Of a stretch of 64,000 bases of DNA, positions 4,336 to 28,770 are shown piece by piece. The notes below the pieces were generated by a model, which searched no databases, was not told the DNA's origin, and worked only from the letters and a program-made list of their open reading frames with translations. Position numbers and translations under genes: made by a program. Location: NCBI GenBank assembly GCA_951406725.2, contig OX597818.1, positions 71,052,001 through 71,116,000 on the forward strand, read 5' to 3'. Position 1 is the first letter of the stretch. Each line of letters begins with the position of its first letter. Source of the stretch: Octopus vulgaris (Eukaryota).

Positions 4336-4599
4336 ATATATATGTGAGTATATGTATTTTTGAATTTGTGTTTGTCTCTGTGGTCATGCAAATTGCTAGA
4401 AAAGCAGCCAAATCTCTCTGAAATTACACATTTCATAATTTTGAAATGGAAGAACACATTGGATAGTCCCCAAAATACAATAAGGTTGTGGTAGTCAAGG
4501 CCTGGAAGATCTTTAATCACAAGTCTTGTGAATAACTGACCCAGGAATAAACAATAATTGTACCCACTTATATCAACTGCTGTACATTAGATAATAGTG

Positions 4600-6819: not shown

Positions 6820-8999
6820 ACAAAGATGTAGTGCACCAACAGATGACAGCACATGGTTGCTTGCGCAGTGAGAGCTAGCAGTGATCTTCATTGGGCAGTG
6901 TGCCAAGTGACATTGTTGTGTTTACTTTGCAAGTTGTGATCACGTGTGTCTGCTGTAGTCTGTGACTTTTGTCATCGGTAGGAAGTTAGAACAAAGAGCC
7001 AACATAAAAGTTTTGTGGTGGAAAGTTGGAAAGTCTGCTTCAGAGACATTGAGCATGCTTCAGCAAGCTTATGGTGATGAGGCAACGGGTCATACACAAT
7101 GTTTTGTGTGACAAAGGCACTTCGGAAGTGGAAGATCATCCCTGGAATAGGATGAGTGATCAGGAAGACCTGCCATGAGCATCACCCTCCCAGAGATGTG
7201 GAGACAGGTCATCAGTTTGTACATGAGGACAATTGGAGGAGAATCAGTGAAGCATTTGCGGGAGGACGCTCAGCGAAAATGACTGGATCTGTGAACTGCA
7301 AAGAATTGGATTCTCCAGGATGACGATGACGCACCTGTCACCAAGCTCTTCTCACTCATCACCTGTCACCAAGCTCTTCTCCCTCGTCACCTGTCACCAA
7401 GCTCTTCTCACTCGTCACCTGTCACCAAGCTCTTCTCCCTCGTCACCTGTCACCAAGCTCTTCTCCCTCGTCACCTGTCACCAAGCTCTTCTCCCTCGTC
7501 ACCTGTCACCAAGCTCTTCTCCCTCGTCACCTGTCACCAAGCTCTTCTCCCTCGTCACCTGTCACCAAGCTCTTCTCCCTCGTCACCTGTCACCAAGCTG
7601 TCACCAAGCTCTTCTCCCTCGTCACCTGTCACCAAGCTCTTCTCCCTCGTCACCTGTCACCAAGCTCTTCTCCCTCGTCACCTGTCACCAAGCTCTTCTC
7701 CCTCGTCACCTGTCACCAAGCTCTTCTCCCTCGTCACCTGTCACCAAGCTCTTCTCCCTCGTCACCTGTCACCAAGCTCTTCTCCCTCGTCACCTGTCAC
7801 CAAGCTCTTCTCCCTCGTCACCTGTCACCAAGCTCTTCTCCCTCGTCACCTGTCACCAAGCTCTTCTCCCTCGTCACCTGTCACCAAGCTCTTCTCCCTC
7901 GTCACCTGTCACCAAGCTCTTCTCCCTCGTCACCTGTCACCAAGCTCTTCTCCCTCGTCACCTGTCACCAAGCTCTTCTCCCTCGTCACCTGTCACCAAG
8001 CTCTTCTCCCTCGTCACCTGTCACCAAGCTCTTCTCCCTCGTCACCTGTCACCAAGCTCTTCTCCCTCGTCACCGGTCACCAAGCTCTTCTCCCTCGTCA
8101 CCTGTCACCAAGCTCTTCTCCCTCGTCACCGGTCACCAAGCTCTTCTCCCTCGTCACCTGTCACCAAGCTCTTCTCCCTCGTCACCTGTCACCAAGCTCT
8201 TCTCCCTCGTCACCTGTCACCAAGCTCTTCTCCCTCGTCACCTGTCACCAAGCTCTTCTCCCTCGTCACCTGTCACCAAGCTCTTCTCCCTCGTCACCTG
8301 TCACCAAGCTCTTCTCCCTCATCACCTGTCACCAAGCTCTTCTCCCTCGTCACCTGTAATCAAGCTCTTCTCCCTCGTCACCTGTCACCAAGCTCTTCTC
8401 CCTCGTCACCTGTCACCAAGCTCTTCTCCCTCGTCACCTGTCACCAAGCTCTTCTCCCTCGTCACCGGTCACCAAGCTCTTCTCCCTCGTCACCTGTCAC
8501 CAAGCTCTTCTCCCTCGTCACCTGTCACCAAGCTCTTCTCCCTCGTCACCTGTCACCAAGCTCTTCTCACTCATCACCTGTCACCAAGCTCTTCTCCCTC
8601 GTCACCTGTCACCAAGCTCTTCTCCCTCGTCACCTGTCACCAAGCTCTTCTCCCTCATCACCTGTCACCAAGCTCTTCTCCCTCGTCAGTTGCTCACCGA
8701 AAGCACCATTGCTGCACCCACCCTATTCGCCAGATTTAGCAGTTGCAGATTTCTGCCTCTTCCCCAAGGTGAAAATGAAGTTCAGAGGTTGCCATTTTAA
8801 CACGGTTGTCAAGATCAAGTCACATTAGGTCTTCAACTCACAGAAAACGTCTTCTAGGCTGGATTCTAAAAGTGGCAGAAATTCTGGGGCCCAGTGTATT
8901 GCTGCAGAAGATGACTATTTCAAAAGAAATGATGTTAAAAAATAAATAAGTTACTTTTATCAACCATAACTAGTGTGGGAAAATTTTGATATCACTTCA
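6820..8999 (+). mobile_element. mariner (DD34D-type) transposon, internally deleted, carrying a minisatellite expansion
   Basis: N-terminal HTH remnant KLEQRANIK..GKSASETLSMLQQAYGDEA..SGRP (6980-7170); WIL.DD.AP at ~7307-7336; LLHPPYSPDLAVADFCLFPKVK at ~8709-8775; left end not resolved. Confidence 0.85.
7332..8688. repeat. 28-bp minisatellite (GTCACCTGTCACCAAGCTCTTCTCCCTC)n, ~48 copies
   Basis: Period 28 read directly (units start at 7621 and 7649); the 28-aa repeat of ORF 7320-8828 equals 3 units. Confidence 0.97.
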
Positions 9000-9004
9000 C
9001 ACAC

Positions 9005-9045
<41 letters not shown>

Positions 9046-9048
<3 letters not shown>

Positions 9049-9402
9049 CCAAGGACTCCAATTTTGTCATCAAGATGTTGGACAAGATACTGCGATAGCC
9101 TGGGCTTCAGAGGTCCACAGCTCTTCTATATTCTCCCAAAGGACCTGAGAGACCTGCATGGGGTGGATATAGGTGTCTTCAAAATAAAGCTGGACCTCTT
9201 CCTGTCAAGCGTCCCAGATGAACCAACTTTGCAGCAGGAGGTGCAGATAAGGGCAGATGCATCAAACTCTCTCATTCACCAAATGTCAATTCCTAAAAAG
9301 CATTTGTGAAGTAAAATTATGTAGCAACACCAAATGGCGGTGCCCCAGCATGACCACAGCTTGTGAGCAGAAACTAGATAAAATAAAAATAAAAAAATAA
9401 AA
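9046..9402 (+). mobile_element. CR1/L2-group LINE 3' end with 3'UTR and A-rich tail
   Basis: SLGFRGPQLFYILPKDLRDLHGVDIGVFKIKLDLFLSSVPDEP; tail GGCGGTGCCCCAGCATGACCACAGC..(TAAAA)n. Confidence 0.8.
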
Positions 9403-9954
9403 TACACACACACACATGACAGACTTTCTTCTGTCACTCCCTCTTTCTTCTAGTCACTGTACCATACTGCTGCTGTACATAAAGATAGTTGTGGGTTTCC
9501 CTGTCTCCCCTATTCACTATACTATGCAGGCTCTCTGTGTGAACTAGTCTAACTTGATTTTTAAAATTTTTCTGTCGTTCACAGTTTATTCTATTCACTG
9601 CTCTAAGCTCCCTATGAAATGAGGTTTGGCATTCAATTCACCAGTATTCAGTCCCTCCTCCTAATATCTTTACCACTCTCCCTCTTTTTCCCATCAATGT
9701 ATCCAACTGTGCCCATCCACTCTACTATCAGCCCTTTACCCCTGGCCACTTATTGACTTCACTCTTCACATTTATCCACTTCTGATACTACCTATCACTC
9801 ACTTTCTCTCTCTCTCTCTTTCTCTCTCCCTCTCTCTCTCCCTCTCTCTCTCTCCCTTTCTCTCTCTCCCTTTCTCTCTCTCTCATATCAATCACTCTCT
9901 TTACCATCATGCTTTCGCTTTTGTCATCCACCCATCCTGTTTGTTGTTGTCACT

Positions 9955-10650
9955 TTTTCTTTAGTTCATTTTGTTGTTTACATTGCTTTGAGTAAATGAA
10001 CACATCACATTGTAGTAAGGAATCTAACACATCAAGTACACTCTGCAAAGTGGATACTACCAGGAAGAAAATAAGTCCAAAGTTAATCATAAAAATGGCA
10101 ACACTCTTCAGTATGATATTATCTGCAATGCTGAATGAAGCTTTTGACAGCAGCATCCCAGACATCTGCATCCCAAATCTCATTGATGGTAACTTGTAAA
10201 ATTTCTGCTGTCACTAAAGTAAGAGAGGCTGATTTCAGAGACCTTATCTTTGCCATATTGCTTTTGATCAGGACATGAAGCTGGAGATGGACTGGTTGTC
10301 AAATGGTTGTCAAATGTGAATGACAAAATTGTCCCTACATAGGCATAACAAACACTGTAGAGATGCACCAGCCTGTCCCAAGAATCTTGATCCAAGGACC
10401 TTAGATCAGTAAATGAAATTCAATTTTAGTCAATTGACAGAGTCTCCTCAGCAACACACTCTAACAAAATGGCAAACATTGATAAAGAAAGAGGTACAAG
10501 CACTAGAGAGCTTGTCATGTCCTTGCCATTACTAAGAGTCTTTTTGACTATGATAGTCATCTACCACTTGAATGTATTGGATACACTTTATCATAGCCAA
10601 TAGTTGTGAGATTGCTTGATCCCATATTGTTTCCAGTCATTCAGAGCAAC
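9955..10650 (-). mobile_element. highly decayed LINE-like (CR1/Jockey group) fragment
   Basis: Coding-like composition with broken frames; only weak resemblance to the endonuclease-RT linker region. Confidence 0.3.
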
Positions 10651-10742
10651 ACAACCATGAGAGTGGGTAGAAGAGAGAGAGCAATCGCTGATGGAGTAGG
10701 GTGAAAAGAGACAAGGAGGGCACTGGTAGAGGGGTGGAATAT

Positions 10743-10778
<36 letters not shown>

Positions 10779-10880
10779 CACAATGAACTTATTGACATAC
10801 AAATAAGCAAAAGTATTAAAAGTTTCTCTACAACTCTTTTGTAAATAGTTAAAAGCTGCTGTCTGTCTCTATTTTACAAA

Positions 10881-10946
10881 TGGAGTGGACATACCTGATG
10901 AGCTAGTGATGACTAGATGAAATTACCTGAGCTGTTCTTCACTTCA
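10881..10946 (+). ncRNA. degenerate type-I hammerhead-ribozyme-like motif, probable Penelope pLTR remnant
   Basis: CTGATGA (10895) + stem CTAGT-gatg-ACTAG + GAAA (10919); flanking TGGAGTGGA / TTCACTTCA can pair as stem I. Confidence 0.45.
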
Positions 10947-11004
10947 TTCTGCTGAGAACACCCTGTGTTTTAACTATGAGATATACATGTGCAGCAAAGC
11001 TAAA

Positions 11005-12026
11005 CATCATCATCATCATCATCATTTAGCGTCCGCTTTCCATGCTAGCATGGGTTGGACGGTTCAACTGGGGTCTGGGAAGCCAGAAGGCTGCACCAAG
11101 CCCAGTCTGATCTGGCAATGTTTCTACGGCTGGATGCCCTTCCTAATGCCAACCACTCTGTGGCTGTAGTGGGTGCTTTTTACGTGCCATCGGCACAGGT
11201 GCCAGACGGGGCTGGAAAACGGCCATGGTCGGATGGTGCTTTTTATGTGCCAATGGCACGGGGGCCAGGCGAGGCTGGCAACGGCCACGATCGGATGGTG
11301 CTTTTTACGTGCCACCGGCATGGAGGCCAGTCAGGGCGGCACTGGCAACAGCCATGATCGGATGGTTCGCTTATGTGCCACCGGCACTGGTATCACAGCT
11401 GCAATTTCCATTGATGTTGATCGACTTCCATGTTGGTTCTGATTTCCACTTGCCTCAACGGGTCTTCACAAGTGGAGTTTTGTGTCCAAGAAGGAAAGTC
11501 GACTGGCTACATCCCAGGTAGAGGCCACAGGTTATGGTCTCACTAGTCCTGCCGGGTCTTCTCACGCACAGCATACTTCCATAGGTCTCGGTCTCTAGTC
11601 ATTTCCTTGGTGAAACCTAAAGTTCGAAGGTCATGCTTCACCACCTCGTCCCAGGTTTTCCTCAACCACTAGGATGTGGCACTTTTTCACACAACTATCT
11701 TCAGCCATTCTTGTCACATGACCATACCAGCGCAAATGTCTCTCTTGCACACCACAACTGATGCTTCTTAGGCCCAACTTTTCTCTCAAGGTACTTACAC
11801 TCTGTCGATTATGCACACTGACATTACACATCCATCGGAGCATACTGGCTTTATTTCTTGTGAGCTTATGCATATCCTCAGCAGTCACAGCCCATGTTTC
11901 ACTACCATGTAGCATGGCTGTTCGTACACATGCATCATACAGTCTGCCTTTTACTCTGAGCGAGAGGCCTTTTGTCACCAGCAGGAGTAAGAGCCCTCTG
12001 AACTTTGCCCAGGCTATTCTTTGCCC
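11005..12026 (-). mobile_element. RTE-clade LINE, 5'-truncated and relatively young, with 3'UTR and (GAT)n tail
   Basis: Open frame RIAWAKFR..KGLSLRVKGRLYDACVRTAMLHGSETWAVT..LRWYGHVTRM; (CAT)n at 11005-11025. Confidence 0.92.
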
Positions 12027-12159
12027 ATACATTTATTAAATATGTTTCCATGCTAGTTTATGTAGAATAATGTTCAGTGAGCTCTTATAGTTGATGTTTA
12101 ACAAATGACAAAATAACAATGTTATGTGATGTGAAATACCACTCATGTTTTGTCTCAGT

Positions 12160-12205
12160 GTGACCCATGCTAGCATGGAAAACGGACGTTAAACGATGAT
12201 GATGT
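12160..12205 (+). mobile_element. isolated RTE 3' tail
   Basis: CCCATGCTAGCATGGAAAACGGACGTTAAACGATGATGATG, near-identical to the reverse complement of 11010-11055. Confidence 0.75.
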
Positions 12206-12929
12206 ACCACCTACCATATGACATGCATATGAGTGAGAGAGAGAAAGTGTGTGTGTGTGTGTGTGTGCACATGCATGCATGTGTATGTAAGATACAATCA
12301 TATTTATTAAACATATAAAGCAAAGGGCCTCATTTAGGCTTGTAGACATCCATCTTTAAAAAGATTCTCAAAGAGAAAGACTATTGGTAATATTTACAAA
12401 TATCAGTACCAAACTTTCTCTGGGATTTTGAGCACAATTAAAGAATGATACATACAAGTCTTAAGCAGTCAACATTCAGTAAGTTATTGTTACTAAGTAT
12501 AACAAGTAGTTCAGCATGTACAGATCTAAGGTATAGCAATAACCAAAATCTAGTTTCAACAAGCTATCAGATCTTTAATAAGGTTACACAGTTGTGATAG
12601 TTCAGAATTAGACATCATATTCTCTTTTTAAGGGGAGCCCATTAGTTTGATGTGTGTGTGTATTTTCTGCTTAGTTATGGGGGAATCGCATCAACCATAA
12701 CCCTTTTTTTCAGGACCTTCAAAACTAGTGAGGGAAATGGGAGAAAGTTATCCTCAATTTGGTAAGCCATTCCAAATGCTTGAAACAAAGCAACCTCACT
12801 AAAGGCCCCTCAAAGATCAATTCATGATGTAAAACTCGGTAACAGATTAAGTCTACTTATGACACACACTGCCAGAACAAATATCATACGGCATACTATG
12901 CAACATTAGTAATTGTACCAGTCTTCTGC

Positions 12930-13068
12930 CCTGGTCTGGTACTTAACTTTATCCACCATGAAAGAGTGAAAGGCATGATTGGTGTTGGTAGAACTTGAAC
13001 TCAGAATATAGACAGCAAAAACAAATATTACAAGGCATTTTGTTCTACACTTTAACAATTCAGCCACC
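12930..13068 (-). mobile_element. tRNA-derived SINE (family A), decayed
   Basis: CTGGTACTT..GAACTTGAACTCAGAAT, similar to 23781-23988. Confidence 0.6.
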
Positions 13069-13286
13069 AACATTGGGCAGTTCAAAGAATTACCTAGAAG
13101 CTCTTTGCTAAATGGAATTGTAAATTGACAGAAATGTTTGACAGTATCAAAAATTGATGAGATAGGAATATTATGACATTAAGAATATCAATAATTTTCT
13201 ATCAGCTTATCTATCCTTTACTCTCTCTCCTCCCCCTCTCTCTCTAAACATAGGTATCTGTGTGTGTATAAGCTCTAGTATGTGTG

Positions 13287-13317
<31 letters not shown>

Positions 13318-14975
13318 GCATGTATACTCACACATAAAAACAATCACAACACTTGAAATATATCAACAGTGTGACACCATCACCTCAGTCAAAGTAAGGC
13401 AAAATTAAATTAGGTATTAGCAAACAACCAATTATATCATTAATGGTAAGCTTATTTTGACATTACTAAAAATAGCATTGAGTTTTTGGCAAATACCCTT
13501 CAGAAGACTCAATAGCAAAACAGTTTCACTGTGACGTGATATGAAACATTTGTAAAGATTAAGTCAAATGCACAGACACCAACCTATGAACGAATAAAAA
13601 AGCTCTTATATGGTTGTTCAACTTACTAAAAATAACATATTTTCCTAATCTCATACCCTATCATGATAGAAACAAAAAAAAGAATTATGTTGAATCATAT
13701 TATCCTAGGTTCATTGCACATAGGAAAAAGATAGACTTCTCATAACTGGAATGCTTCTGATCATCAGTTGTTCAGTCAGGGATAACAATGGGGCCAAACG
13801 TTTACCATTAAATTGACAAATAACCATTAGTGACTTCCTTGGCAAACACAATGTGCTCGGGAAAGAATTTTCATAGGAGAACAGAGTCAATTTCCCATTG
13901 CCTTCTTTTAGGTACATTTTACAAGATGCCATCATGTCAGATATTCATTAAGATCTCCACAGCTACCTCAGCTGAAAGAAATATCACAAAATATTTTATA
14001 CAATGCCCTCGGAATTCTGCCACATCATCCCCACTGGACTAGAACTTTATTTTATCACCTTCAGAAGACAAAGTTACTCTCAGCAGAACTGAATTCAGTA
14101 AAGAGCATTTTGTCTGATTTTCTAATAAGCCTACCAGAGAATTAGAGAGTTCCTCATTTGATCACTCTAAAATTCAAATATTCAATGAAGCTATTTTCTT
14201 TCCTGAATGCATATTGATGAAAAATAATTAAATAAAGAGTTAAAACAGGAAAACTATCAAAGATTACAAGAGCAAATGGAGTATTGCAATGGTTAAATAT
14301 ATTTTATTCAGTATCTTGACTGCAGAGACACTGGGATTGAGTTCCTCATGCTTGTGCCACAGACTTAACAAAGTCAGAGAGATTGGTTTGCATTCGGTTT
14401 TGTTTCAACATCCAATAAGTTTCTGATGCAAGAATGAATTACTTGACGGATGACATGAAATTTAAGATAATGAGAATGTTTCTCTTAAAAAGGAATAATA
14501 ACACCACTATTATCAGTCATTTCACTGATTATATTTTCTTACATAATATCCTGCTGGAGACTTTTTGTAAATTTCAAACTCTGAATTTGTGTGTGTGTGT
14601 GTGTGTGTGCATGAGCACATGCATGCATGCGTGTGTGTTTTATATAAAGTATATTTGTATGTATGCGTATTATGGAACATGGACGTTAAATGATGATGAT
14701 ATATTTGTGTTTGCTCACATCTAGTGTTTAAATACTTGTGAAAATAAGATTTTAGAATCAAAGATAAAAAACAAACAAACATATAAATGAATCACTTCGT
14801 TGCAAGGAGAATAGAAAATAAACACCAGAATACAAAGGGAAAATAAGGAATAGACTTAATAGCAATAATAAATAAACATTTTAATCTTCTGCAATTAAAA
14901 CCAAAAAATGCTTCATGTAAATTTCACATAACAACTAATAATGATAGCAAAAGCAATAACAACAACAACAACACA

Positions 14976-15340
14976 GCAGTCCCATCAGATGATATTCAGT
15001 CTCTAAAAGGAAAAGAGAAATTATCTAAATATAAAGATAGGGAAACAGAGAGGAGCTGAATGTGGGGCCTGAAAACTGAAACACTCCCTATAAATAATAA
15101 GTGCTTCAGGAATGATTAAAAAGAAACACAAACAAATACATAAAAAAGTCCAGGATTTACAAATATACCTGACACACAAAAATGGTATCACTTAAGCACA
15201 GCACACGTACTATGCAAAGTAAAATCTAACAAAACCATAACAAAAAGACTGTAACATATCCAATGCACAAAACAACAGCACTCAGTGAAAGCATGCATTA
15301 GAAATAAAATTATTGAATAATAATAATAATAATAATAAGA
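14976..15340 (+). mobile_element. R4/Dong-like (restriction-like endonuclease) LINE 3' end followed by (TAA)n
   Basis: VPSDD..KEKLSKYKD..MWGLKTETLPI..GMIKK..STAHVL across frameshifts, the RLE C-terminal pattern. Confidence 0.75.
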
Positions 15341-16309
15341 CTACATAATGATAATAATAATAATAGCAACAACAACAATAGATAAATAAACAAATACTCA
15401 TTTCATTTTTCTTCATTGAATCCGTAAATATTTTACTTTTTGTCAGATTTTACTAGAACTCATCAAAGCACTCATGATTGTGATTAATTTCTATTGGTAC
15501 TTGATTTTTCAATTTTTTGGAAAAAGCCATCATCAATATTATATACCTCCTCTATGTCTCATTAACCCTTAATTGCAAAAATGGCAGACATCTTAAAAAA
15601 GTGTTTTCTTGTATTCAAATCAAGTCTGCGAATATCCTTTCTGTAATCTCTCTCTCTCTCTCCCTCTCTCTCTCTCTCTCGTTTAGTAGCTGATATGTAG
15701 CCTAATTTTTTTAAATGTGTCTTTGTGTATGCTTCTGAAAAACATTTTTTTTTTATGTTTCAAAAAAAAATTAAATTGTCTGTAAATAGAAATTGTATAT
15801 TTTTCATATCTGGATTCAACAAAAGCCACAACAAAAATAAACAAAATAAAAAAAAGATAAGTCTATTACAAACTTTAATGCAATAATGTGAAGATCTTTA
15901 AAAAAATAAAACAAAAAAAAACTTTACAAAAATGCAGTCTTTTTCATTTTTTTTTTGTTATTTTTAGATATATTCAATTTTAAAAGTAATTTGTTTTATA
16001 ATCAATATTATCCTAAATCTATAGAGGTGTGGTGTAGCTTGAAGTGGTGTGACACAGTATGCATTGTAAAGTCAAAATATGCTCTCAGCAAGCTGAGCTT
16101 GTGACTCAGTTTCAATTCCCAGCTGAAGTTAATTCAGTTCAGTTCACTTATACTGCTAAATGATTGGGTAAAACATTGAGGTCAGACAAACACATTTCTT
16201 CCCATTCCCCATCCACTGGCAGGATTTAGTGCCTCAGTAATAATCCCGTATGTGAAATTGGAAAAAAAGCACAGTTATATGACAACAACAAAAACACAAT
16301 ACCTACTAT

Positions 16310-16350
16310 TAATAATGATGATGATGATGATTTCATTGCCACTACTACTA

Positions 16351-16391
<41 letters not shown>

Positions 16392-16420
16392 GTAATAATA
16401 ATAATAATAATAATAATAAT
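16310..16420. repeat. compound (GAT)/(TAC)/(TAA) microsatellite
   Basis: Direct reading. Confidence 0.9.
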
Positions 16421-17544
16421 CTTGTATAGATGCTAAATGCTCCCAACAAGTTCATCAATCACATCATATATGCCTTGCGAATCAAAACTGCTATCAGAAA
16501 TATAACAAGCTTCCCAAAATGGTGTCAAAGATATTTTCTTACAAATATTAAAAAACGAAAAAATATGGGTCATTTGCTTGAAAAGGACCAGAAGTCATGG
16601 GCTTGTCCTTTCTTATGTCATGCCACATAAACATTTTAAAATAAGAATTGTGGATGTTTCAGTTTTTCATTTAAATTTTTCCAGCTTTCTTTTATTTATT
16701 TTGCATTAAAAATTTATGGCTGTGACTTTTCAGCTTGCAATATTATGATAAATTTCCAATAAAAGATACACGTGTGTGTGTGTGTGTATAAATATGTGTG
16801 TGTATATGTATCACACATGCACATGCACAAATGTGTAGGTGCGTTAGAGCATATATCTGTGTGTTAGAGAAGAAAAAATGAAAGCATTTGTCAATTGTCA
16901 ATGACAAAATGACAAAAACACTTTGATATTTCAATAAAAAACACGTTCCAGTTTAACAATAGTTATATTAGCCCAACGCAGTTATCACCTTGTGTGCTAT
17001 CACATTCACATCCATTTTTTGATACTTTTGTACACATGCACACAGACACACTGTAAACATCACAATGTAGTTATCTGAAGTGCCCTTTGAAAAATGACTT
17101 AAGCAAATGAAATTTTAAAAAAAACAGTAAATGGTACCAATAATATACTCTGTTGCAAACAGTCTTCTCATATTCTTCCAATTGATTTTGTTTGTCTATC
17201 TAGCCAACAAAGAGGGGGAAAAAGAAAAGCAGAAAAAAAATGGTTTCTAAATGAAGTTAAAGTCATTCTCAAGAATATTTTTATTTTTTAAATATTGTGA
17301 CATTTTATATTGGCATAGAGAATCAAATATTCTATATAATAACTATAGATAGATTGTGAATTTGAATAAAGCATGAAATACTGAATTAAAAAAACCAAAA
17401 AACAGTTTTTACTTGCTTGAAAGTGTTTATGGGTGTATTTCAAACATTCTCAGTTTTAAATGCTATTACTCCAAGTTTCTCACAAAAGCAATTGTCTTTC
17501 AAGAAACCTATATTAATCAGTTTTAAACACATTTGTATTAACAG

Positions 17545-17568
17545 TGTGCAATGCTTGATCTACATAAG
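17545..17568 (+). CDS. candidate 24-nt frame-preserving microexon (CAMLDLHK in phase 0, or VQCLIYI in another frame); host gene unknown
   Basis: TTTGTATTAACAG|TGTGCAATGCTTGATCTACATAAG|GTAAGC: canonical acceptor, strong donor, length a multiple of 3, TE-poor surroundings. Confidence 0.5.
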
Positions 17569-17709
17569 GTAAGCAGGTTTATACATCCAGGCCCAGATGC
17601 CATTCGATTAGCCCTTTTGTCAACTGTACTCAATCTATTGACATGTATAGTTGCACAAAAGGCTGAGGAGACAAAAACGAGATCTGGGTGTATAATACTC
17701 CTTACCTTA
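17565..17709 (+). promoter_or_regulatory. long imperfect RNA hairpin overlapping the microexon 5' splice site
   Basis: TAAGGTAAG pairs with CTTACCTTA (17701-17709); TTATACA with TGTATAA; CCCAGAT with ATCTGGG; AGCCCTTTTGTCAACTGTAC with GTATAGTTGCACAAAAGGCT; TCAAT with ATTGA. Confidence 0.75.
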
Positions 17710-18344
17710 CACATAACGAACACATACACAAAAACATGCACATATATAAAAAAGTTACATTATAAATTTTATATTTTTCTGCACTTCATATTGAGTTCTT
17801 TTCTCATGTTCGTATGTATCAATATGTAGTCATTTGCTTTTATATATGAGAGTGTGTGCATATATCTGATTCTGCTACATTTTAAGAACAGCATTGATTT
17901 AAACATTTCAAATAAACAAAGAAAAATACTTTATTGTAGAAGCCAAAACTGGTCTAGTATAATGGTTGGCTACTGAATGTGTTTCATGGGATAACTAAAT
18001 GCATTGTTTCAACTCCAAGCTTCTTTCATTTAGATATTGCTTCAACAATCTCAGCAGAGAAAGTCGTAAAGATTTACTTTAAGGAGTGATTCAAAACAGA
18101 CATCTCTTAACCAAGTTAATTCTTGTAAACAATCAGAAAGCAGCTGATTGAAACCACCATGTTTCTGGATTGCTTACATCCTGAATGTCAGGGTCACACC
18201 ATTTGGACTCTTGTTAATTTCATAGTCAAGCATCAAGAATACATTATTAAAGATTGCATCAAGGTCAACTTAGAAGTTGCAGCATAGTTATGTTGTGTTG
18301 TATGTATGCACATGTGTGTATGTGTGTGTGTGTGTAAGCATATA

Positions 18345-19609
18345 CAGGGGTTGGAAAAAATAATGGAAACGCCTTAAAATTTTAAGCAAATTTATTTTAA
18401 TATGGAGTAGGACCACCTTTGGAAGTAATTACACCTTGAATTCTATGAGGTATGAACTTGTACAAAGTTTGGATTGTTTCCAATGGAAATTTTCTCCATT
18501 CTTCAGCTAAAAGTCTCCAGTTCTTGTAGTGACGACTCCTTACTTGTTTTTCTAAAATGTACCCCATAAATGTTCGATAATATTGAGGTCTGGGGACTTT
18601 TGTGGCCAGATAAGATGTTCATCTTCACTAGAATGTTCCTCATGCCATTCAGTAACCACTTTAGCTGTGTGAAATGGCGCATTATTATCCTGAAAGATTG
18701 CGTTTCCCTTCAGAAACAGTTCTGCAACCATAGTATGAATTTGATCAGATAAAATATTTAAATAGTCTTGACTATTAATTCTGCCATGAAGGGAAACCTT
18801 TGGGCTGGTGGATTTCTAAGATATAGCCCCCCACCTGATCATCACAGATCCTCTTGCATGTTTAACAGTTGGAAGAAGACAGTCTGGTCAAGTGCTTCTT
18901 TTGGCTGTCTCCACATGTATACTCAGCTGGTGGCTGGAAATAAGGTAAAGGATGACTCGTCCAAGAAAATAACATTCTTCCACTGCTCTGGGAACCAATT
19001 CTGTAGGTTTTTACTCCACTCTAAATGCTTTGCTTTTGAAAAATGTTTGTTTTTGAAAGTAGTGGTTTTCTGATTGCAGCCCTACCATGAAATCTGGCTT
19101 TGTACAGCTCCTGGGGAACAGTTTTTGTGGAAACTGGGTTCTCAAGGTGATCATTAAGCTCTGCAGTAATTTTGGGAGCTGTACTTTTATGATCCTTTCT
19201 AACAATTCGTGTAAGAGTCCGACGGTCCCTATCTGAAAGTTTTGGTTTGCTTCCGGAGTTTTGTTTCAAAGAGGAGGTTTCTCCTTTTTTCTCAAAAGCT
19301 GCCATTACTTTTGAAACAGTACCTCTTGATACACCAAACATTTTGGCTGTTTTCATTATACTAGCGCCTGCCATATGAGCACCAACAATTTGTCCACTTT
19401 GAAAGTCCTATAGATCTCTCATTTTAATGAATTTTAATTACCTTTTTCTGATGATATCTGAAAAGAAACAGCAATTTTAGCAAAACATATTAATCAACAC
19501 TAACAATAAATCAAAAAACAAAAATAAACAAGCTTTTGACAGTTTTATAGATATTTCAAAATTATGATGCTATGATGCTAAGTGTTTCCATTATTTTGTC
19601 CAAACCCTG
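18345..19609 (-). mobile_element. full-length Tc1-family DNA transposon (DD36E/Incomer-like), ~28-bp TIRs, TA target duplication
   Basis: TA|CAGGGGTTGGAAAAAATAATGGAAAC ... GTTTCCATTATTTTGTCCAAACCCTG|TA. Confidence 0.93.
18397..19422 (-). pseudogene. Tc1 transposase pseudogene (~342 codons, stops and frameshifts)
   Basis: MRDL*DFQSGQIVGAHMAGAS..VSRGTVSKV (HTH); VIFLDESS; FQDNNAPFH..WPQKSPDLNIIE; GGPTPY*. Confidence 0.92.
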
Positions 19610-19786
19610 TATATATGTTGCTTCACTTTGAGATACTCATTTCTACACAGCTCACAGCAGTCTACACTCATTTATTTCAAGTTTATATTTCATGCTTATA
19701 TTAGAAATAAATTTGTTCAAAGCTCATTTGAAAACTATTGCACTTGACCACACAAACACACACACAATCACAAACACACACACAAA

Positions 19787-19853
<67 letters not shown>

Positions 19854-20159
19854 AGAGTAATTAGATTAAGGCAGGCTTCTCATGTTTCACCAAATCACTA
19901 GTGTGCCTCACAAAGAATGTCAGAAATTCTTCATGTACCATTTTTTTATAATGTTGTTGACTGGAATGATGTGAAAGCTACTCTTTGATATCAGGGCTCC
20001 ACTTCAAAAAATTTCCAAATGTCATATTTTCATATTTTTGCAATTATATCAGCAAACCTCCAATCAAACTATTTGTTGGTTGATATTGGATAACCTCAGG
20101 AGTAAACCATTCTTTTTGTTTTACTCATTTTATGCCTGTGCTTGATAATTTCTTCAGTA

Positions 20160-20650
20160 GAATTAAGTTAAGGCTGCTAACACGTTTTAGAAATAGCTCA
20201 TACAATTATACTTCTAAAAATACTAATATACAAATAATTACTTCATTCTGCTATGGATTTTGTGTAATACTCTCATGAAAGAGAAACTCACATGGATTAA
20301 CAACAGCAATCTTGACGGTGCCAGTATCTTTTCCATTGCAATCCTCACAGGAAAAATTATATCCCATTCCTTTGTATAGCTCTGGCTAATTTGCATGTAA
20401 AACACAGATTGATCTTCCTTTAAAATGGAATATTTTTTGAAACAGGTTTTCAGTTTCTGCTCTCTTATTTTGAATTTTCAATACTCATGAAAAATATTCT
20501 GTGTAATGAAAATACTTATTGATAAAAACTCTTCAATTGATGAAATCAAACTTATCAATAAGCTCAAAATGTAGCATTTGAATAGCTTGACTTTTGAAAT
20601 GATTCTCGTCATCAAGCATAAAACTTGAGCAATTAAGAAAAAGCATGAAG
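20160..20650 (-). mobile_element. possible decayed hAT transposase C-terminal fragment
   Basis: VKIAVVNPCE / SFSFMRV across a frameshift resembles the hAT dimerisation motif (P....ERSFS). Confidence 0.3.
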
Positions 20651-21476
20651 GATTATCTCTATTTCAACATAACTATTTTATCTTTCTAGAGTTAGTAACA
20701 TATGTACCAGTAATACACGCAGGTCAGTTCAATCACCTACTTTCCTTTCCACCATTGACTTTATGGATATGCTGTGTCATAGTAAAAGCCATTGAGCAAG
20801 AGCCATGCTTACTATAAATTCAGGTTGCCTGCATAATTATCAAGAAGTCACTGACCAACACATTTTAAACTCTGCTCCATAAACATAGCATCTCTTTACT
20901 CTGCCTTTTCTACTGCTACTGCAGTAACACCCCCCCCCCCCATCTAATCTTGCCTCTGTCCTCACCTCATTGCCCATGTTGTGTCCAAGGTGTGCTATTA
21001 TAAAGAGTACGAATGGCACACTTTTTTCATTCCTTCCCTATGAGGGTTTATGCTCCCACAGAGACAGAAACTTTGTCAGCCCTGATAAAATACATTTCAC
21101 GCATGACCCTCTTATCATTTTTCAGGCCTCATCTAACTAATACTACATGGTCCACTCTAGCTTTAAATATCTTTAAAGGCATCATGCTGTGATTTGAAAA
21201 AAAATTTTACTGCTATTCCTAGCTAGTTGAGTGACCATATAGAGGCCCTTGTGGTGGTTTGAAAGAAACTATAATCTTGAAGGTGAAAAAAGTCTTTGAT
21301 AAAATCTTTATCACTGGCCTCTGGTCATTCTTTCATCTAAATGTCTTACTATTTTCAATTGTTTCTTTTATTGCGATGGACTAAGTTTCTTCTAGATGTT
21401 GATTCCCCAATTCTATATACAACGATGTCTTTACATTCTTCACCTTTTCATAAGTTCTTTCTTTTATCTTCTTTCT

Positions 21477-21524
<48 letters not shown>

Positions 21525-22006
21525 ATCATTTATGACCCATTAGAATGAGAAAATTATGTAAAATTTCCTAAGGTCTTTACAACTTGCTTTGTTTCAGCCA
21601 TCATGGCAGAGATCATGCTGGAGAACTGCCAAGTGGCACTATTTTTGTTAATTGGCATCCTAACAGTTATTAGCAGTACAGTCCTTTTACACCGTTCATG
21701 GCTCAAATCTTTCTGCTCTTTCTCCAAAAGGAGATTCAGAGAGCTATGATGAACACTATTGCTACACAAAAGAAATTGAACACTGTAATACACACTCTTT
21801 TCAATAGCTCTTGTAATAATTTGTTTGTTTCTTAGCACAAGATTAATTAGAAAAAATTCATCTTTTAAATATTCTTTCAATTTTGACTTTAGTTTTTCAT
21901 TAGTAATTGTTACTGTTAATTTCATCCTGCCATCTTTCATCATTTTTCTCTCACAAATATTCTTGTTTTCATTTCTATATCATGCAGTCTCAGGTTAAAC
22001 ACTCAT

Positions 22007-22050
<44 letters not shown>

Positions 22051-22576
22051 ACTCACATATTCTTTCTCACAGAAACACACACCTAAATATTCTACTTGTA
22101 TTAAGGTTAAAACAAATGTTTCCATTTTTTTTTACCATTTAATGTAAAGAAAAAGTAAAACTGATAGAAAACATAAAACAACAACAAAGACATACACAGA
22201 CCTCATTTCCAAAACTTCTGCCATGTTTGTATAAAGAGTAGGTCAGAACAACTAATTACAAAATAACAAATGTAGGACGTCTTCACTGACTGTCACACTA
22301 ATTATCGATCTTCTTAAATTGATTTTATTTTCAAACTTTCTCCTTGATCTCAATGAAGGACAAGAAAAGAATTTTTCTCTGATGGATCAAACAAATTTCT
22401 TCATGGATATTATTTTCCTTTTGTTTGTGATTGCTATTTAGCCTCAGGTCATCTCTGATCAAGCAGACCTCTCACTAAAGGCTTTCCAAACACGACTATT
22501 CCATCTTTTTTATTTTCACATCAATTCACTCAACTGCTTTGTCCAATATATTCGCCTCTGTTTAAGACAGTAAAAT

Positions 22577-23310
22577 CAGTGGTGTGTGGTGATTGTTGCA
22601 ATTGGGGGTTGCTCAACACTGACCACACTGAAAATTAAATTAAAAGTACGTATTTCTGCAACTGTAAAAGCATTTAAGATCAACACGAATTGAATTTTAA
22701 GTAAAATGCTTAAGCACACAACTAAGAAAATCACAGAACTCACTGAGCAAAATATCAACTCACAACCTTTCACATTGAACCGTTTTCGATGGCCAATGGC
22801 AAAACAGCTGAGACTACCTAAACTTGTAGTGTTTGGTGCACTAACAGTGCCAGAATTTGATCTGAGTTCTGTTTCTGACTTCTAAAAGTGTATTAATTAG
22901 TTTTGCAAAATTAAGATCAATGTTATATGATGATATTGTAAGAAAAAAATTAGTGTAAAAAAATTGGTTTTAGTTTAGGAATTTTAAATTAATTTACGTG
23001 TACAACTTCTACCTACAAAAACGAACATGCGACACTGCTGGCAAAGCTTTCACACACCCTTCACCATTCATTCTTTGCCATTCTCCCATTAACCCACTAT
23101 ATGCCCGGTACCATATTATGATACAATGCTCTGTGAGGTGTGTAGTTCTATTTCAGGACACCCGCTACCAAATTTCAAGCAGGGTTATAACAAAAGTTTT
23201 CCATCCTGGTTTGTGATTAAATTAATGAATAAGGCTAATGTTTATAATGAATATGCCATTTTCAATGGGTGTGTGGTGAACACCAAGCTCACCTGGAATA
23301 TACGCCCCTG
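22577..23310. mobile_element. possible non-autonomous hAT element
   Basis: Ends CAGTGGTGTG.. and ..TACGCCCCTG resemble CAG(T/G)GGCGTA hAT TIRs; no 8-bp TSD seen. Confidence 0.3.
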
Positions 23311-23780
23311 TGCAATTTCACTTTTCAAAATGAGATCTGTGTATGTTTTTTTATATTGTTGTCTATATTTATTTTGCTGTTGTTTTTCAAATGTTTGTAA
23401 TTTTGTTTGTTTTTGTTTATCAGATTATTAGTTGTGGTGATGTTGTAGTGGAAGTGTTGGTTGTGGTGGTGGTGGTGGTTGTGGTGGTGTTGGTGTAGTT
23501 TTCCTACCCTAATGTACCAATCAAATTTTAACTATTCTCAAAGTTTCCAGTTCTATCATTAATTCTTTGTTGTGAACCAACCATGATTTCTGAGTCAAGA
23601 AGCAAATATTGAAACTTTGTTGTATTTGTTTACTGGTCCACACTCAACTTAAAAAGGGAACCTCTGAACAGCCACTCAGCCTACAAGAAATAGCAGCCAA
23701 AGCTTGTTCAAATCACACCCTACTACCTTTAAAAAAATGGGTGGACATATCAAAAAATTTCAGTACTATATTCTTTTCTT

Positions 23781-23988
23781 CCCTAGGCACAAGACTCGAA
23801 ATTTTGGGGGGAGGGGGCCCAGTCAATTAGATCGATCCCAGTATGCAACTGGTACTTAAAATTTATTGACCCTGGAAGGATGAATAGCAAAGTCGACTTT
23901 GGTAGAATTTGAACTCAGAATGTAAAGACAGACGAAATATCGCTAAGCATTTCGCCTGACATACTAACGTTTCTGCCAGCTCGCTGCC
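23781..23988 (-). mobile_element. tRNA-derived SINE (family A), near complete
   Basis: Minus strand GGCAGCGAGCTGGCAGAAACG (A-box-like), GAGTTCAAATTC (B-box), TCATCCTTCCAGGGTCAATAAA..AAGTACCAG central domain. Confidence 0.85.
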
Positions 23989-24869
23989 AATTTCAGTACT
24001 ATATTGAAATATAAATTGGATGGCCATGACAAGAGTGTCTTGATTATCGGCTTGTTAAGTCAGTCATCTTGATGGTAAACTGTGATTCATACTTTTTTTT
24101 TTTACATATCAGAGTTTCGTTACTTCAGAATTTGCATTAATGTTCAGTCTAAAATTTCTGTAACAGCCCGTTCTTCCAAAACATAAAAAAAAAAAGCATT
24201 TGGAAGTGCTCTTTCATCCCCAACAGGATCTCCTTGTCCTATGCCATTATTTCCAAAATGTATTACCAAAATTGTACCTGAGCCCCATTACAAGATTTTG
24301 TCTCCGTAGTTAAGTACAAGCTTTTACAATAAATTTAGTATAATTTCTGTTACACACCAAATTAAATTCTGTTTTTGGATGAAAACAAATTGTCACCCTG
24401 CCATCTTCTAAACCTACAAACCAACAAGGAGGCTTCTAGGCATTCAGGTCACCCACCAAAGTAGCAGCCAATTCCTGTCATATAACACCCTAGTGTCTTA
24501 AAAAAATGTTAAGGATATATTAGCTTGTGTACCCCTACATATAAGTAAGGCCAGTGTAACCCAGTACCATACACATAAAAGAAGTTGGTCTCAGAAATGT
24601 AAATCAATGATGTACTCAACAGTTTTATATGATGGAATTCAATCAACCTGTCTTCATCTACAATTTGGCTGAACCAAGCTATTGATAGCTATCTTGTTTA
24701 AAGGCACAGTATGGTACCATTTAACATAACTCTTTAATTAATAGTTCAAAACCTATGAACTTCATCATTTGTAGCTGTTTACACATAAACAGGATGAGTA
24801 AGAACTATATTTAGATACTGAACATATGTATCCCTAGTATAAACTCAATATATTTAAGCCTATGAAGAG

Positions 24870-25020
24870 TCTCTAAATGATCATTCTGCCTACTAGAAAT
24901 AGCAGCCAAATCTTTCTTAAACCACACTCAGCCTTCTTAAAAAAAAAAAAGAAATGATCATAGTTTGAATGCTCTTTATCTTAGGTCTGTTCAATTAGAG
25001 TCAGCCTGAGGCTAAAAGCA
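24870..25020 (+). repeat. copy of a dispersed 'AGAAATAGCAGCCAAAT' repeat family (related copies ~4395, 21200, 23680, 24460, 26980, 41410, 46410)
   Basis: Recurring CTAGAAATAGCAGCCAAATCT..CACAC..TCTTAAAAA motif on both strands. Confidence 0.6.
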
Positions 25021-26389
25021 ACAGCAACTAATGAATATTTTGATTTCTTTCTTTTTTATTGACCTGGCAGAAGAAGGGGCTGTGCTCATAGCCTTCACAG
25101 ACCTTCCAACACCAACAAGATCAGTGAAGTTAATAGAGATTGTGCAAGTGATGCATTTTCGTTACTAGTACAATTCAGATGCTAGAGAACATGGTTGAAA
25201 GCCTCCCGTTCTTTTGCTGTAGCATATAAGCTTTACTGCATAATTCCAGTTTGAACTTAAACTGTACAGACCTATATCTCTCAACAGATATGTTCATTCA
25301 GGATAAATGCATTCAAAACAACAATGCAATCAATAGAATAAGTGTCCGATAATGACTTGAAAGTGAATGTCTGAAGATATATTCAAGAAATCATGATTGG
25401 GAAAATAAAAAACATACAAGTATTGTCTCATTAATGTATGCAGTAAAAAAGAAACTAAGAGGTGTTAATGAGGACAAAATGGAAAGGCAGGGTAGAGGTG
25501 AGAAAAACATCCTAATAACAAATTAACTAATAATGAATGAAATGTAAGTTATATAATGATATGAACCGGTTAGTAATTAGTGAAGTTGTTTGACGCACTT
25601 GTTAATAATGAATGCGCAATGTGCATGTGAGAGAGAGAGAGAGAGAGAGTATATACTTGACAGAGAAAACGTATTGCTGTTGAAGAATGCTAGTTTCTAT
25701 TCAAACTAGTTAGTAGTAGCAGTTTTCTGGAACAGCGTATTGCCTGAAGATATAACTACTGTTATAAAAACGATGTCAAGCAAGTGAATAATGAGATTCA
25801 GTGAAAAATTTAAAAAATACAAAAATCATAAAGTTCAACTGAATGGTTGGTCAGGGAATGAGTGCATGAGTGATTACAAAAGAAGGCTTGTAACAAAGGT
25901 AGGATGTACAAATATTAAGGGAAATTCAATATCACTGAATCTTCCATACGACAGCCAAATGATGAGAAACTAATATAGTTTCACAAATTGAATAGAAGCG
26001 GTCAAATAGGGAATCTAAAAGTGCATTTTATTGGAAGAAAAACACTGAATATTATAATATCTTACAGTATGGCGTTTTTTTTTCTATCCTTATCTATTCA
26101 TCAACACAATGTTTTGTATTGAATAGTACTAAACAGTACTTAGTTTTTCTTCTCAACTCTTTCGCTACCATACCTCTAATGGAAATACTCTACTTAATTT
26201 TGCAAATAATCAAAAATTTTGAGAGATTCAGTAACATAATTAACTTTTGTCTTTATTAAAATGGTATTTTGAACATAAAAGGTTCTCACATAAAATTATA
26301 ATGAAAGGTTTTAATTTAAATCTAAAACCCCTTATTACAGACAATTTCAAATAGGTTAATATCCAAAAGGCTACGTTTCTTGACAATGA

Positions 26390-26720
26390 CGTCATCATCG
26401 TCATCATCCTCTTCCTCATCATTTAATGTCTGTCTTACAAGCAAACATGGGTTGAGCAGTTTGATAGGAGCTGGCAAGTCAGAAGACTGATCCAAGCTCT
26501 ACTGTTTAGCATTGTTTCTGTGGCTGAATGCCCTTCCTAATGTCAACCATTTTACAGAGTGTAGTGGGTGATTTTTATGAGGCACCAGCAGCAGTGGGGT
26601 CACTAAATAACTCACTAGACAAGACCCCCTCAGCTGAGGGGTGTGTACTTTGGAGAAAGGTAACTTTGTGCTAGATGAGAGGTTAGCATATAAGTAGAGA
26701 CACTCTCCTACAATAAACCA
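26390..26720 (-). mobile_element. RTE-tail-type repeat
   Basis: (CAT)n-TTAATGTC..GGCTGAATGCCCTTCCTAATGTCAACCA. Confidence 0.7.
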
Positions 26721-27791
26721 CAAAACTCTCTAATGTAGAATGAGATAAAACATTAAATTATTATACTGAAACTCCTTGTATGCCTTTTACTTTAAAAGTT
26801 AAAAGTTAATATTATCCTGAATCTGAGGACTTGTTGAATAGCTTCTGGTGAGCTCTGATAAAGCACAAACATTCCAGCAGTGAGTCCCCATATCCTTTAT
26901 TCAGGCATTATGTGTCTAACACCACACAATCCAATATGTCCTCCTCTCCAGAACAATAGTGAATGAGTTGTGACACATTCTGCTGCTGCTTCTAGCAGGT
27001 CGAGTGATCACATGTCTAAGACATTATAAAGGCGGTTCTTTTGTCAGCCACCACCCCACAGTAGACAAATCTCTTCTTGTATTGGACACTAGTTGAGTGT
27101 AATCAAATACAGTATTACTGGTACCTATTTATCAGCTTCATTAATTATAACTAAGTGAACACAATAAATAAACATAAGCCAAGGCCCTGTGGTAGATATG
27201 AATTATCTGTTAGCATGAACCTGGTATCTTATCCAGCTGCACAGCTTCATATACGTAGCAAGAGAAAGTCTCTTAAATCATACCTGATGAAATGAGCTGA
27301 TTTACTTTGCTGTTAAATGACAATCAAATCAAACTGAAGAAATCTTCAACGTTTATAAGTAACTGAAGGAAAATAAAGCAAATTTTAGGAATTTCCATGT
27401 AATAACAAAGTCAGGAACAAACTGTAATAAACAGAATTCAAAATATTTCAGTTCTACGGAGATTGAAAAACTAATATCATCTCACATCAGACAACAGGAA
27501 TTTAATAGATTATCTAAGCCTTCACCTTTCCAAAGTAAATAATCCAAACCCTAACAAATGCAGACAACTGCACTTTTAATCTTCAATCTGTCTTCAAACA
27601 TCATCACAGCAGCTTTTCCATTTAGAAATTCTAGAAGTAATCTTAATGATATTAAAATGCTGTTTCATTGAATTTGCAGTTTGCACTTTATTACTTTGTT
27701 TTATATCTTTCCCTACACTTTGTTATAAACCTGAGTTTTCTTCTTGAATTATGCATTACTTTGAATGTGTACACACATGCCCTCACACACA

Positions 27792-27830
<39 letters not shown>

Positions 27831-28540
27831 ACACACACACACATCAATATCCAATTTACATAAATTTAGCAGAATCGTTAATTTCCATAGTAACATGGGT
27901 GATCAGTTCCTACCGGTTTTATTCATGTTGCGGGTCATCTTTTATCTTTATATTCAGTAGACCAACCTCTCCTCAGAGTGTTAATAATCAATGGACACAA
28001 GCATAGCTGTATGGCTAAGAAGTTACCTCCTCGACCATGTAATTCCAGTTTCTGGGACCTTCTATGCAGCACATTGAACAAGTAGTATCTACTATAGACT
28101 AAGGATAATCGGTACTTTTTCACCAAAGCCATACATTCATATATAAATACCCTATGTAGTATTTGTTCTCTCCAAATTGCACACACAGACCCTTTATCAC
28201 ACACACTGTCAAAGATGCAATGAACTTGCAATAGGCCAATGGGTAACTTGTAACCAAAATACTATTGATCACCAGATGCAATATAAAATTATTTTTGTTA
28301 ATTAATAACACATAATAGCTCACTTATTTAGTACTGATTGGTGAGGGAATGATGAAGGGGTTGGGTTAATAATCAAATGTCTATTTCCACAGCTGTACTT
28401 TAGTTGTTCACTTTGAACATTTTGATAGATCTTCAATGGATATATCATTGCTGTCGGCCTATTTGTTTTCAGTGTAGTTATTGCAAGTTATAGGTTGTGA
28501 TAAGCCTATCTGTTATTTTGTGTTTCAACAACCAGCAAGC

Positions 28541-28573
<33 letters not shown>

Positions 28574-28765
28574 TTAACGTCCACTTTCCATGCTGGTATG
28601 GGTTGGATGGTTTGACAGGGGACTGGCAAGCCAGGAGGCCACTCCAAGCTCCAATCTGATCTGGCAATGTTTCTACAGCTGGATGCCCTTCCTAACACCA
28701 ACCACTCTGAGAGTGTAGCAGGTGCTTTTTACGTGGCACCAGCATGGGAGCCAATTGGGGTGGGG
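28541..28765 (-). mobile_element. RTE 3'UTR/tail copy
   Basis: (CAT)n-TTAACGTCCACTTTCCATGCTGGTATGGGTTGG..GGATGCCCTTCCTAACACCAACCAC, close to 11005-11190. Confidence 0.85.
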
Positions 28766-28770
28766 GGCTG

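What the first reader, a model, noticed from the sequence alone, without database searches (positions are those of the whole stretch)
17532..17709. 24-nt microexon whose 5' splice site is locked in a long hairpin by a downstream anti-donor sequence
Seen: a canonical AG|24 nt|GTAAGC exon candidate in TE-poor unique sequence. The donor and last exon bases (UAAG|GUAAG) are perfectly complementary to CUUACCUUA ~135 nt downstream, which resembles the U1 snRNA 5' end (ACUUACCU). The intervening sequence forms nested helices, including a ~20-bp inner stem, with bulges and mismatches unlike a young MITE. Inference: a structure-controlled splicing switch and/or an editing-complementary sequence for ADAR; A-to-I editing is extensive in coleoid nervous tissue (established). 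Editing of the exon-terminal AAG or donor adenosines could couple recoding to inclusion. The inner stem (17610-17665) is also pre-miRNA sized.
Basis: partly seen in the sequence, partly recalled or inferred. Interest (0 to 1): 0.75.

Follow-up and report, generated by a model that had tools for sequence, protein, structure and literature searches.

The report
Hairpin-hidden splice donor in octopus Kirre
Inside a giant intron of the octopus cell-adhesion gene Kirre, a single-copy sequence is predicted to fold into a hairpin that hides a strong splice signal behind a 24-base exon-like stretch, likely keeping it skipped; no protein or transcript using it was found, so a regulated splicing switch remains possible but unshown.

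Summary
In detail: AG|24 nt|GTAAGC at 17545-17568, a perfect 9-nt complement of the donor region at 17701-17709, and a 145-nt hairpin (z -5.8). New here: the window lies wholly inside one 104.8-kb, phase-0 intron of Kirre/IrreC on the same strand, so the 24 nt would add eight residues in frame to the cytoplasmic tail, at a junction that varies between isoforms in molluscs. The hairpin is single-copy, whereas 5 of 5 other strong hairpins tested nearby are repeat families, so it is not a recognisable MITE. Opening the donor is predicted to cost 15 kcal/mol (real Kirre donors 2.6-8.9). But use is unsupported: 0 of 12 cephalopod Kirre proteins carry the peptide, the acceptor is weaker than all 11 real ones checked, neural-microexon signals are missing, and the one possibly-RNA contig is unspliced (one A>G, depth 2.5). 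No conservation test had power. The inner stem has pre-miRNA size but lacks a lower stem. Best reading: a structure-silenced, normally skipped exon; an ADAR-linked switch about 15%.

The parts
1..64000 (+). Interior of one 104.8-kb phase-0 intron of Kirre/IrreC (between K603 and S604 of P0001; flanking exons end at window position -2325 and begin at +102460)
17513..17544 (+). Weak acceptor region: branch-point-like 5-mer 17513-17517, a competing AG ending 17520, AG at 17543-17544; pyrimidine fraction 0.50
17545..17568 (+). Candidate 24-nt exon, stop-free in phase 0 (CAMLDLHK); use not shown
17566..17574 (+). Near-consensus 5' splice site AAG|GTAAGC, one of two donors scoring 7 or more in the unmasked part of the intron
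17565..17709 (+). Single-copy imperfect inverted repeat; predicted 145-nt multi-helix hairpin
17701..17709 (+). Anti-donor: exact complement of 17565-17573, 3' strand of the basal helix
17579..17695 (+). Second helix 17579-17591 paired with 17683-17695; holds A17589, read as G in one depth-2.5 contig of a possibly-RNA run
17608..17666 (+). Inner 21-bp stem with 15-nt loop, pre-miRNA sized, without a lower stem
17538..17574 (+). Alternative reading: branch-point-like 5-mer 17538-17542, 27 nt before AAG|GT, a juxtaposed acceptor/donor as in a recursive site, with a poor pyrimidine tract

Best explanation
A single-copy inverted repeat in the large cytoplasmic-tail intron of octopus Kirre is predicted to fold on the pre-mRNA into a hairpin whose bottom helix covers a strong 5' splice site, likely keeping the in-frame 24-nt exon in front of it skipped by default. 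Shown: host gene, strand, phase, open frame, single copy, and skipping in every protein that spans the junction. Predicted: the fold, and a cost of about 15 kcal/mol to free the donor. Inferred: the donor is free only until the anti-donor is transcribed about 132 nt later (cost 6.8 before, 15.2 after), so U1 has a short window; with a weak acceptor the exon is rarely defined. The hairpin thus acts as a silencer of a cryptic or rare exon, whether kept by selection or merely making a strong intronic donor harmless, and is probably an intronic ADAR substrate as a side effect.
For: Host and phase. Fold. Opening cost 15.4 versus 2.6-8.9 kcal/mol for 9 real Kirre donors; step from 6.8 to 15.2 once 17701-17709 is present. 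Single copy: 1 candidate in DNA searches, self only in pattern searches with 2-3 mismatches, while 5 of 5 other strong hairpins tested gave 40-1594 candidates, one family seen at 76-82% identity. None of the 25 listed stronger hairpin windows in 464 kb holds a donor scoring 6 or more. Skipping: 9 of 12 cephalopod proteins join K directly to S, 2 leave for other ends, 1 stops earlier, 0 carry the peptide. Wobbles favour the sense strand: 4 G.U and no internal A.C in the best fold, though only 2 G.U in the other register. One 217-nt contig of a possibly-RNA run covers 17505-17721 unspliced with A>G at 17589, where DNA run X9 of the same organism label reads A (depth 2.5, may be an error or allele).
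Against: No read shows the structure, U1 binding or any splicing at this site. The acceptor (pyrimidine fraction 0.50 versus 0.69-0.88 for 11 real acceptors) may be too weak for the exon ever to be defined, which would make the mask irrelevant. The coincidence is rare per site (my estimate: 2 such donors in 63,879 unmasked nt, about 0.5% for a 145-nt hairpin), but this genome has 1323 windows with notes, so a chance case is expected somewhere. Skipping in protein sets is also what a non-exon gives. The splice-site matrices I used are rough, recalled frequencies.
Confidence: 0.45

Rival explanations
1. An old, one-off inverted duplication decaying without function; the donor-like 9-mer inside it is accidental and is never engaged, with or without the hairpin.
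For: The arms align with 53 identities, 5 mismatches and 28 gap positions, as a once-perfect repeat with small insertions would. Strong donors arise at chance rate in this intron (5 sense, 7 antisense) and the repeat gives an equally strong donor on the minus strand. A reversed control of the 9+9 pattern also hits once in the genome. Weak acceptor; no protein with the peptide.
Against: Nearby strong hairpins are transposon families (5 of 5 tested), this one is not; siblings at 25% divergence would be caught about 22% of the time each, so a family of more than about 13 copies is unlikely (rough calculation).
Confidence: 0.27
2. A regulated cassette microexon: slow polymerase, a helicase or ADAR editing opens the hairpin in some neurons and eight residues are inserted into the Kirre tail.
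For: In frame and stop-free in the right phase. The junction is variable: abalone isoform pairs differ by six residues there (3 of 3 species pairs), and O. bimaculoides isoform X2 leaves it for a terminal exon that maps to window 60905. One A>G in the stem.
Against: 0 of 12 cephalopod proteins include it. Microexon code not met: AG-free zone only 22 nt, no UGC before the acceptor, no long pyrimidine tract (against PMC8797185). Replacing six helix As by G lowers the predicted opening cost only from 15.4 to 13.9 (G overstates the stability of inosine pairs). Editing rarely alters octopus splice sites.
Confidence: 0.15
3. The inner stem is an intronic microRNA precursor and the outer helix is incidental.
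For: 22-nt arms, 15-17-nt loop, about 21 pairs, 61-nt size and U at positions 1 and 9 of the 5' arm fit MirGeneDB averages; single copy; 94 novel octopus miRNA genes exist and are not in print as sequences that I could read.
Against: About 2.5 of 11 lower-stem pairs; no CNNC in 4 registers; basal UG in only 1 of 4. No Rfam match. No match of arm 9-15-mers in the supplements I could search, bar one unrelated 8-mer.
Confidence: 0.08
4. AAG|GTAAGC is a recursive (zero-length exon) splice site that splits the 105-kb intron, gated by the hairpin.
For: Very long intron; a branch-point-like 5-mer 27 nt upstream of an AG directly followed by a strong donor; such AG/GT sites occur in very long fly introns (PMC6110457).
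Against: AAG rather than YAG, no pyrimidine tract; fly sites have strong juxtaposed motifs; the hairpin would hide both halves.
Confidence: 0.05

Closest known systems
Donor-masking stem-loops of MAPT exon 10 and SMN2 exon 7 (review PMC11802352, passages read)
   Same: A pre-mRNA hairpin covers the 5' splice site and is expected to hinder U1 binding and favour skipping.
   Different: Those are proven on real, partly included exons. Here the exon is unproven and the hairpin is 145 nt with about 45 pairs; that the known stems are much shorter and marginally stable is recalled, not read here.
eMIC/Srrm234-dependent neural microexons (PMC8797185, passages read)
   Same: 3n length of 24 nt, weak acceptor, insertion into a non-Ig cytoplasmic part of a wiring receptor.
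   Different: No long AG-free zone, no UGC before the acceptor, no long pyrimidine tract; no inclusion seen.
Exon/intron editing-complementary duplexes and intronic ADAR substrates
   Same: Long bulged duplex across an exon-intron border on the sense strand; most octopus editing is intronic or 3' UTR (PMC9699675).
   Different: Only 4 exon bases are paired, at the very end of the helix, so recoding geometry is poor; one doubtful A>G only.
Fold-back MITEs of this genome (e.g. window 44311-44468, 59606-59720)
   Same: Similar size, inverted repeat without a central spacer, TA at both ends.
   Different: Those have 40-1594 candidate copies and near-perfect arms; this one has one copy and gapped arms.
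Kin of IRRE / IrreC-rst (P0001; XP_029636688, XP_014783579 as listed)
   Same: Host gene, already annotated; exons match P0001 at 100% apart from boundary overhangs.
   Different: No listed isoform includes the 24-nt segment.

Membership tests
Cassette microexon | Canonical AG/GT ends, 3n length, open frame in the host phase | tested here: met
Cassette microexon | Inclusion in transcripts or proteins | tested here: inconclusive
   0 of 12 cephalopod proteins; one possibly-RNA contig unspliced; no spliced RNA data were reachable, so rare use is not excluded
Cassette microexon | Conservation across cephalopods | not testable with these tools
   only near-identical organisms were served; no related genome held
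eMIC/Srrm234 neural microexon | Long AG-exclusion zone, UGC near the acceptor, long pyrimidine tract | tested here: not met
   competing AG 24 nt upstream, UGCs only inside the exon, pyrimidine fraction 0.50
Donor-masking RNA structure | Stable helix over the 5' splice site on the sense strand | tested here: met
   predicted only:
Donor-masking RNA structure | Breaking the helix changes splicing and compensation restores it; covariation | not testable with these tools
   needs a minigene or diverged orthologues
ADAR editing-complementary duplex | Duplex on the transcribed strand with A>G in RNA but not in the same animal's DNA | tested here: inconclusive
   one A>G at 17589, depth 2.5, no matched DNA, run type guessed
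ADAR editing-complementary duplex | Exonic target A well inside the duplex | tested here: not met
   A17566 and A17567 are 2-3 nt from the helix end
Canonical pre-miRNA | About 22-nt arms, about 16-nt loop, about 19 pairs | tested here: met
Canonical pre-miRNA | Paired lower stem and Microprocessor motifs | tested here: not met
   2.5 of 11 pairs, no CNNC in 4 registers, basal UG in 1 of 4; the 11-bp figure is recalled
Canonical pre-miRNA | Reads from both arms with 2-nt offsets; conserved in two species | not testable with these tools
   no small-RNA data; octopus miRNA sequences not readable
MITE | Many dispersed copies | tested here: not met
   positive controls 84-86, 97, 98
MITE | Terminal inverted repeats and target-site duplication | tested here: inconclusive
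   the repeat ends in TA on both sides, which is palindromic and uninformative; no longer direct repeat in the flanks
Recursive splice site | Strong juxtaposed 3' and 5' motifs around AG/GT in a very long intron | tested here: not met
   5' part strong, 3' part weak: AAG and no tract

The most novel reading that the evidence does not exclude
An unannotated Kirre microexon is gated by a co-transcriptional RNA lock: U1 must bind before the anti-donor is made 132 nt later, or ADAR must loosen the stem, so polymerase speed or editing decides whether eight residues are inserted beside the tyrosines of the adhesion receptor's tail in octopus neurons.
Probability: 0.15. Interest if true: 0.72.

Novelty: new member of a known kind. 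Interest (0 to 1): 0.4.

Why it matters
Kirre/IrreC receptors are wiring and adhesion molecules, and this junction of their tail already varies between mollusc isoforms. If the exon is used, it is a compact, testable case of RNA structure, and perhaps editing, controlling splicing in a cephalopod, where editing is reported to alter splice sites only rarely. If it is never used, it is a clean example of a strong donor in a 105-kb intron made harmless by its own complement.

Tried and rejected
Rfam: 0 matches at gathering score in the window; 4 chance matches, none on the hairpin. Pfam on 296 open frames of the window: only transposase and reverse-transcriptase above cut-off or credible, no host exon, explained by the window being intronic. 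Sequencing runs: no RNA holder listed. Four runs guessed as RNA (X3, X4, X5, X12) gave flat cover with very deep repeats, behave as genomic DNA and say nothing on splicing (its tables were cut). Runs X9, X10, X16: about 5 differences in 1.5 kb, none listed in the hairpin, no power; X16 has no cover at 17464-17708 at low depth, which proves nothing. Metagenome scans for the two inner arms and for the exon plus donor: 0. Four genomic open frames over or near the site are not in the protein collection. Search at 50% clusters with the upstream exon gave 11 proteins, 8 further ones read, none with the peptide. No long-range partner for the exon or the internal loop clearly above reversed controls. 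Papers: no hit for arm sequences; no listing for Kirre with octopus microexons (titles and abstracts starts only). The octopus isoform annotation and data files of PMC9699675 could not be read; they, and MirGeneDB itself, may already settle the exon or miRNA question. H/ACA and C/D box readings were considered by eye and dropped (box spacing does not fit). A look-up of the full protein with the eight residues inserted was not made, so that isoform's presence in the collection is tested only through cluster members.

Full report
Observation. The sequence shows AG at 17543-17544, 24 nt, then GTAAGC; 17565-17573 is the exact complement of 17701-17709. The region folds at -60.3 kcal/mol, z -5.8, 0 of 200 shuffles as good. 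The fold has a basal helix over the last four exon bases and the donor, a 13-bp second helix, an internal loop and a 21-bp inner stem. Among 2472 unmasked 160-nt windows of the gene span it ranked second of 18 listed. A Tc1/mariner fossil lies at 18343-19611, so the site is unique only locally.

Host gene. Pfam found no host exon among 296 open frames of the window. In 200 kb fetched on each side an exon scan found two Ig exons and a cytoplasmic exon on the + strand. They belong to P0001, named kin of IRRE 1 / irregular chiasm C-roughest in Octopus records. All its exons map on the + strand; the window lies inside one 104.8-kb intron between K603 and S604, phase 0. The 24 nt read CAMLDLHK without a stop in that phase.

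Is the exon used? Of 12 cephalopod Kirre proteins aligned, 9 join K directly to S, 2 leave the junction for other ends, 1 stops earlier, and 0 contain the peptide. The junction does vary: abalone isoforms differ by six residues there in 3 of 3 species pairs, and the O. bimaculoides X2 ending maps to window 60905. No run on record as RNA was served; of eight runs laid, four guessed as RNA behaved as DNA. In one search the fifth guessed-RNA run, X20, gave one contig in 1.9 kb: 217 nt, 17505-17721, depth 2.5, unspliced across both sites, with two other letters, one listed as A>G at 17589. That fits unspliced pre-mRNA with one edit in a CAG context, but the run was chosen for holding part of this stretch, its type is a guess, and the change may be an error or an allele.

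Splice signals. With rough recalled matrices the donor scores 7.2, among 5 sense and 7 antisense donors that strong in the intron; in-frame stop-free YAG microexons precede 2 and 1 of them. The exon pattern alone is therefore ordinary. The acceptor has a pyrimidine fraction of 0.50 against 0.69-0.88 for 11 real Kirre acceptors, a competing AG 24 nt upstream and no upstream UGC, unlike eMIC-dependent microexons (PMC8797185, passages).

Is it a MITE? I tested 5 of them for copies: 1306, 1594, 1289, 40 and 286 candidates, one family seen at 76-82% identity. The finding gave one candidate, itself, and only itself in mismatch-tolerant patterns. A rough calculation says a family of more than about 13 copies at 25% divergence would have shown. 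A one-off old inverted duplication remains possible: the arms align with 53 identities, 5 mismatches and 28 gap positions.

Mechanism. Freeing positions -3 to +8 of the donor costs 15.4 kcal/mol, against 2.6-8.9 for nine real Kirre donors. On growing transcripts the cost is 6.7-6.9 until 17700 and 15.2 at 17710, so the donor would be accessible only briefly. I infer default skipping by a kinetic lock plus a weak acceptor, as for the donor-masking stems of MAPT exon 10 and SMN2 exon 7 (PMC11802352, passages). The best fold has four G.U pairs and no internal A.C mismatch on the sense strand; in the alternative register only two, so this is weak. My chance estimate: two donors scoring 7 or more in 63,879 unmasked intron bases give about 0.5% for one 145-nt hairpin, but 1323 windows of this genome carry notes, so an accident is a live rival.

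ADAR coupling. The exonic As sit 2-3 nt from the helix end, where ADARs are described as unable to edit (PMC3113232, passages and a figure legend). Substituting G for six helix As lowered the cost only to 13.9 (this overstates stability, since inosine pairs are weaker). In octopus most editing is intronic or in 3' UTRs and very rarely altered splice sites (PMC9699675, passages). An ordinary intronic substrate is plausible; an editing-driven switch is not supported.

miRNA. Arm, loop and pairing sizes fit MirGeneDB averages (PMC11701709, section 9 read whole), but only about 2.5 of 11 lower-stem pairs form and CNNC is absent in four registers. Rfam has no match. Supplement searches found nothing relevant, but the main octopus data file was unreadable, so absence from the miRNA catalogue is not shown.

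Literature seen. Search listings only. Passages: PMC9699675, PMC11802352, PMC3113232, PMC8797185, PMC6110457, PMC8294545. Supplements: PMC9699675 file 3 part 1 read and files searched, PMC11701709 and PMC8125070 searched. None of these describes this site; the claim reaches no further than those searches. Earlier scan notes on similar octopus hairpin-microexon cases were not checked.

Verdict. A real, single-copy, sense-strand hairpin predicted to hide a strong donor in a Kirre intron, most likely keeping an in-frame 24-nt segment skipped. Use, regulation and conservation are unshown. New member of a known kind; interest 0.4; the switch reading about 15%, worth 0.72 if true.

Noticed in passing
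L024:7676-7714 (window about -2324 to -2286): The first 12 codons of this intron translate identically (VRFSQHYHTYLV) in octopus and in a decapod-type read-through protein P0014, then diverge just after a second GT donor 33 nt downstream; other molluscs' read-throughs differ. Likely a conserved alternative donor adding 11 residues with a tyrosine pair to the Kirre tail; better supported by conservation than the microexon.
   Followed up: partly
window 60905-60970: Alternative terminal exon of Kirre: matches the C-terminus of O. bimaculoides isoform X2 (P0004) at 19 of 21 residues; it would drop the conserved C-terminal end.
   Followed up: partly
window 61276-61314: Second in-frame, stop-free exon candidate (39 nt) ending at the only other strong unmasked donor of the intron, 410 nt after the 60905 acceptor.
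   Followed up: no
P0017/P0027, P0022/P0026, P0025/P0024: Abalone Kirre isoforms differ by VLYAGK at the homologous junction, cutting into a YDEV tyrosine motif; that this motif binds Nck-type SH2 domains is recalled.
   Followed up: no
window 18343-19611: Tc1/mariner fossil with TA-flanked inverted ends and a broken transposase on the minus strand; very high copy by contig depth.
   Followed up: partly
window 44311-44468 and 59606-59720: Near-perfect fold-back palindromes from families with over 1000 candidate copies; at 44311 the two arms abut, while at least some other copies have a spacer.
   Followed up: partly
window 7332-8688: 28-nt tandem array of 48 copies, giving long spurious open frames.
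   Followed up: no
window 16958: A 16-nt insertion relative to this assembly is present in 5 of the 8 runs laid: a common indel polymorphism.
   Followed up: no
P0019: A transporter-like sequence is filed in the cluster of the 52-aa Kirre fragment P0013; a clustering artefact, ignored.
   Followed up: no
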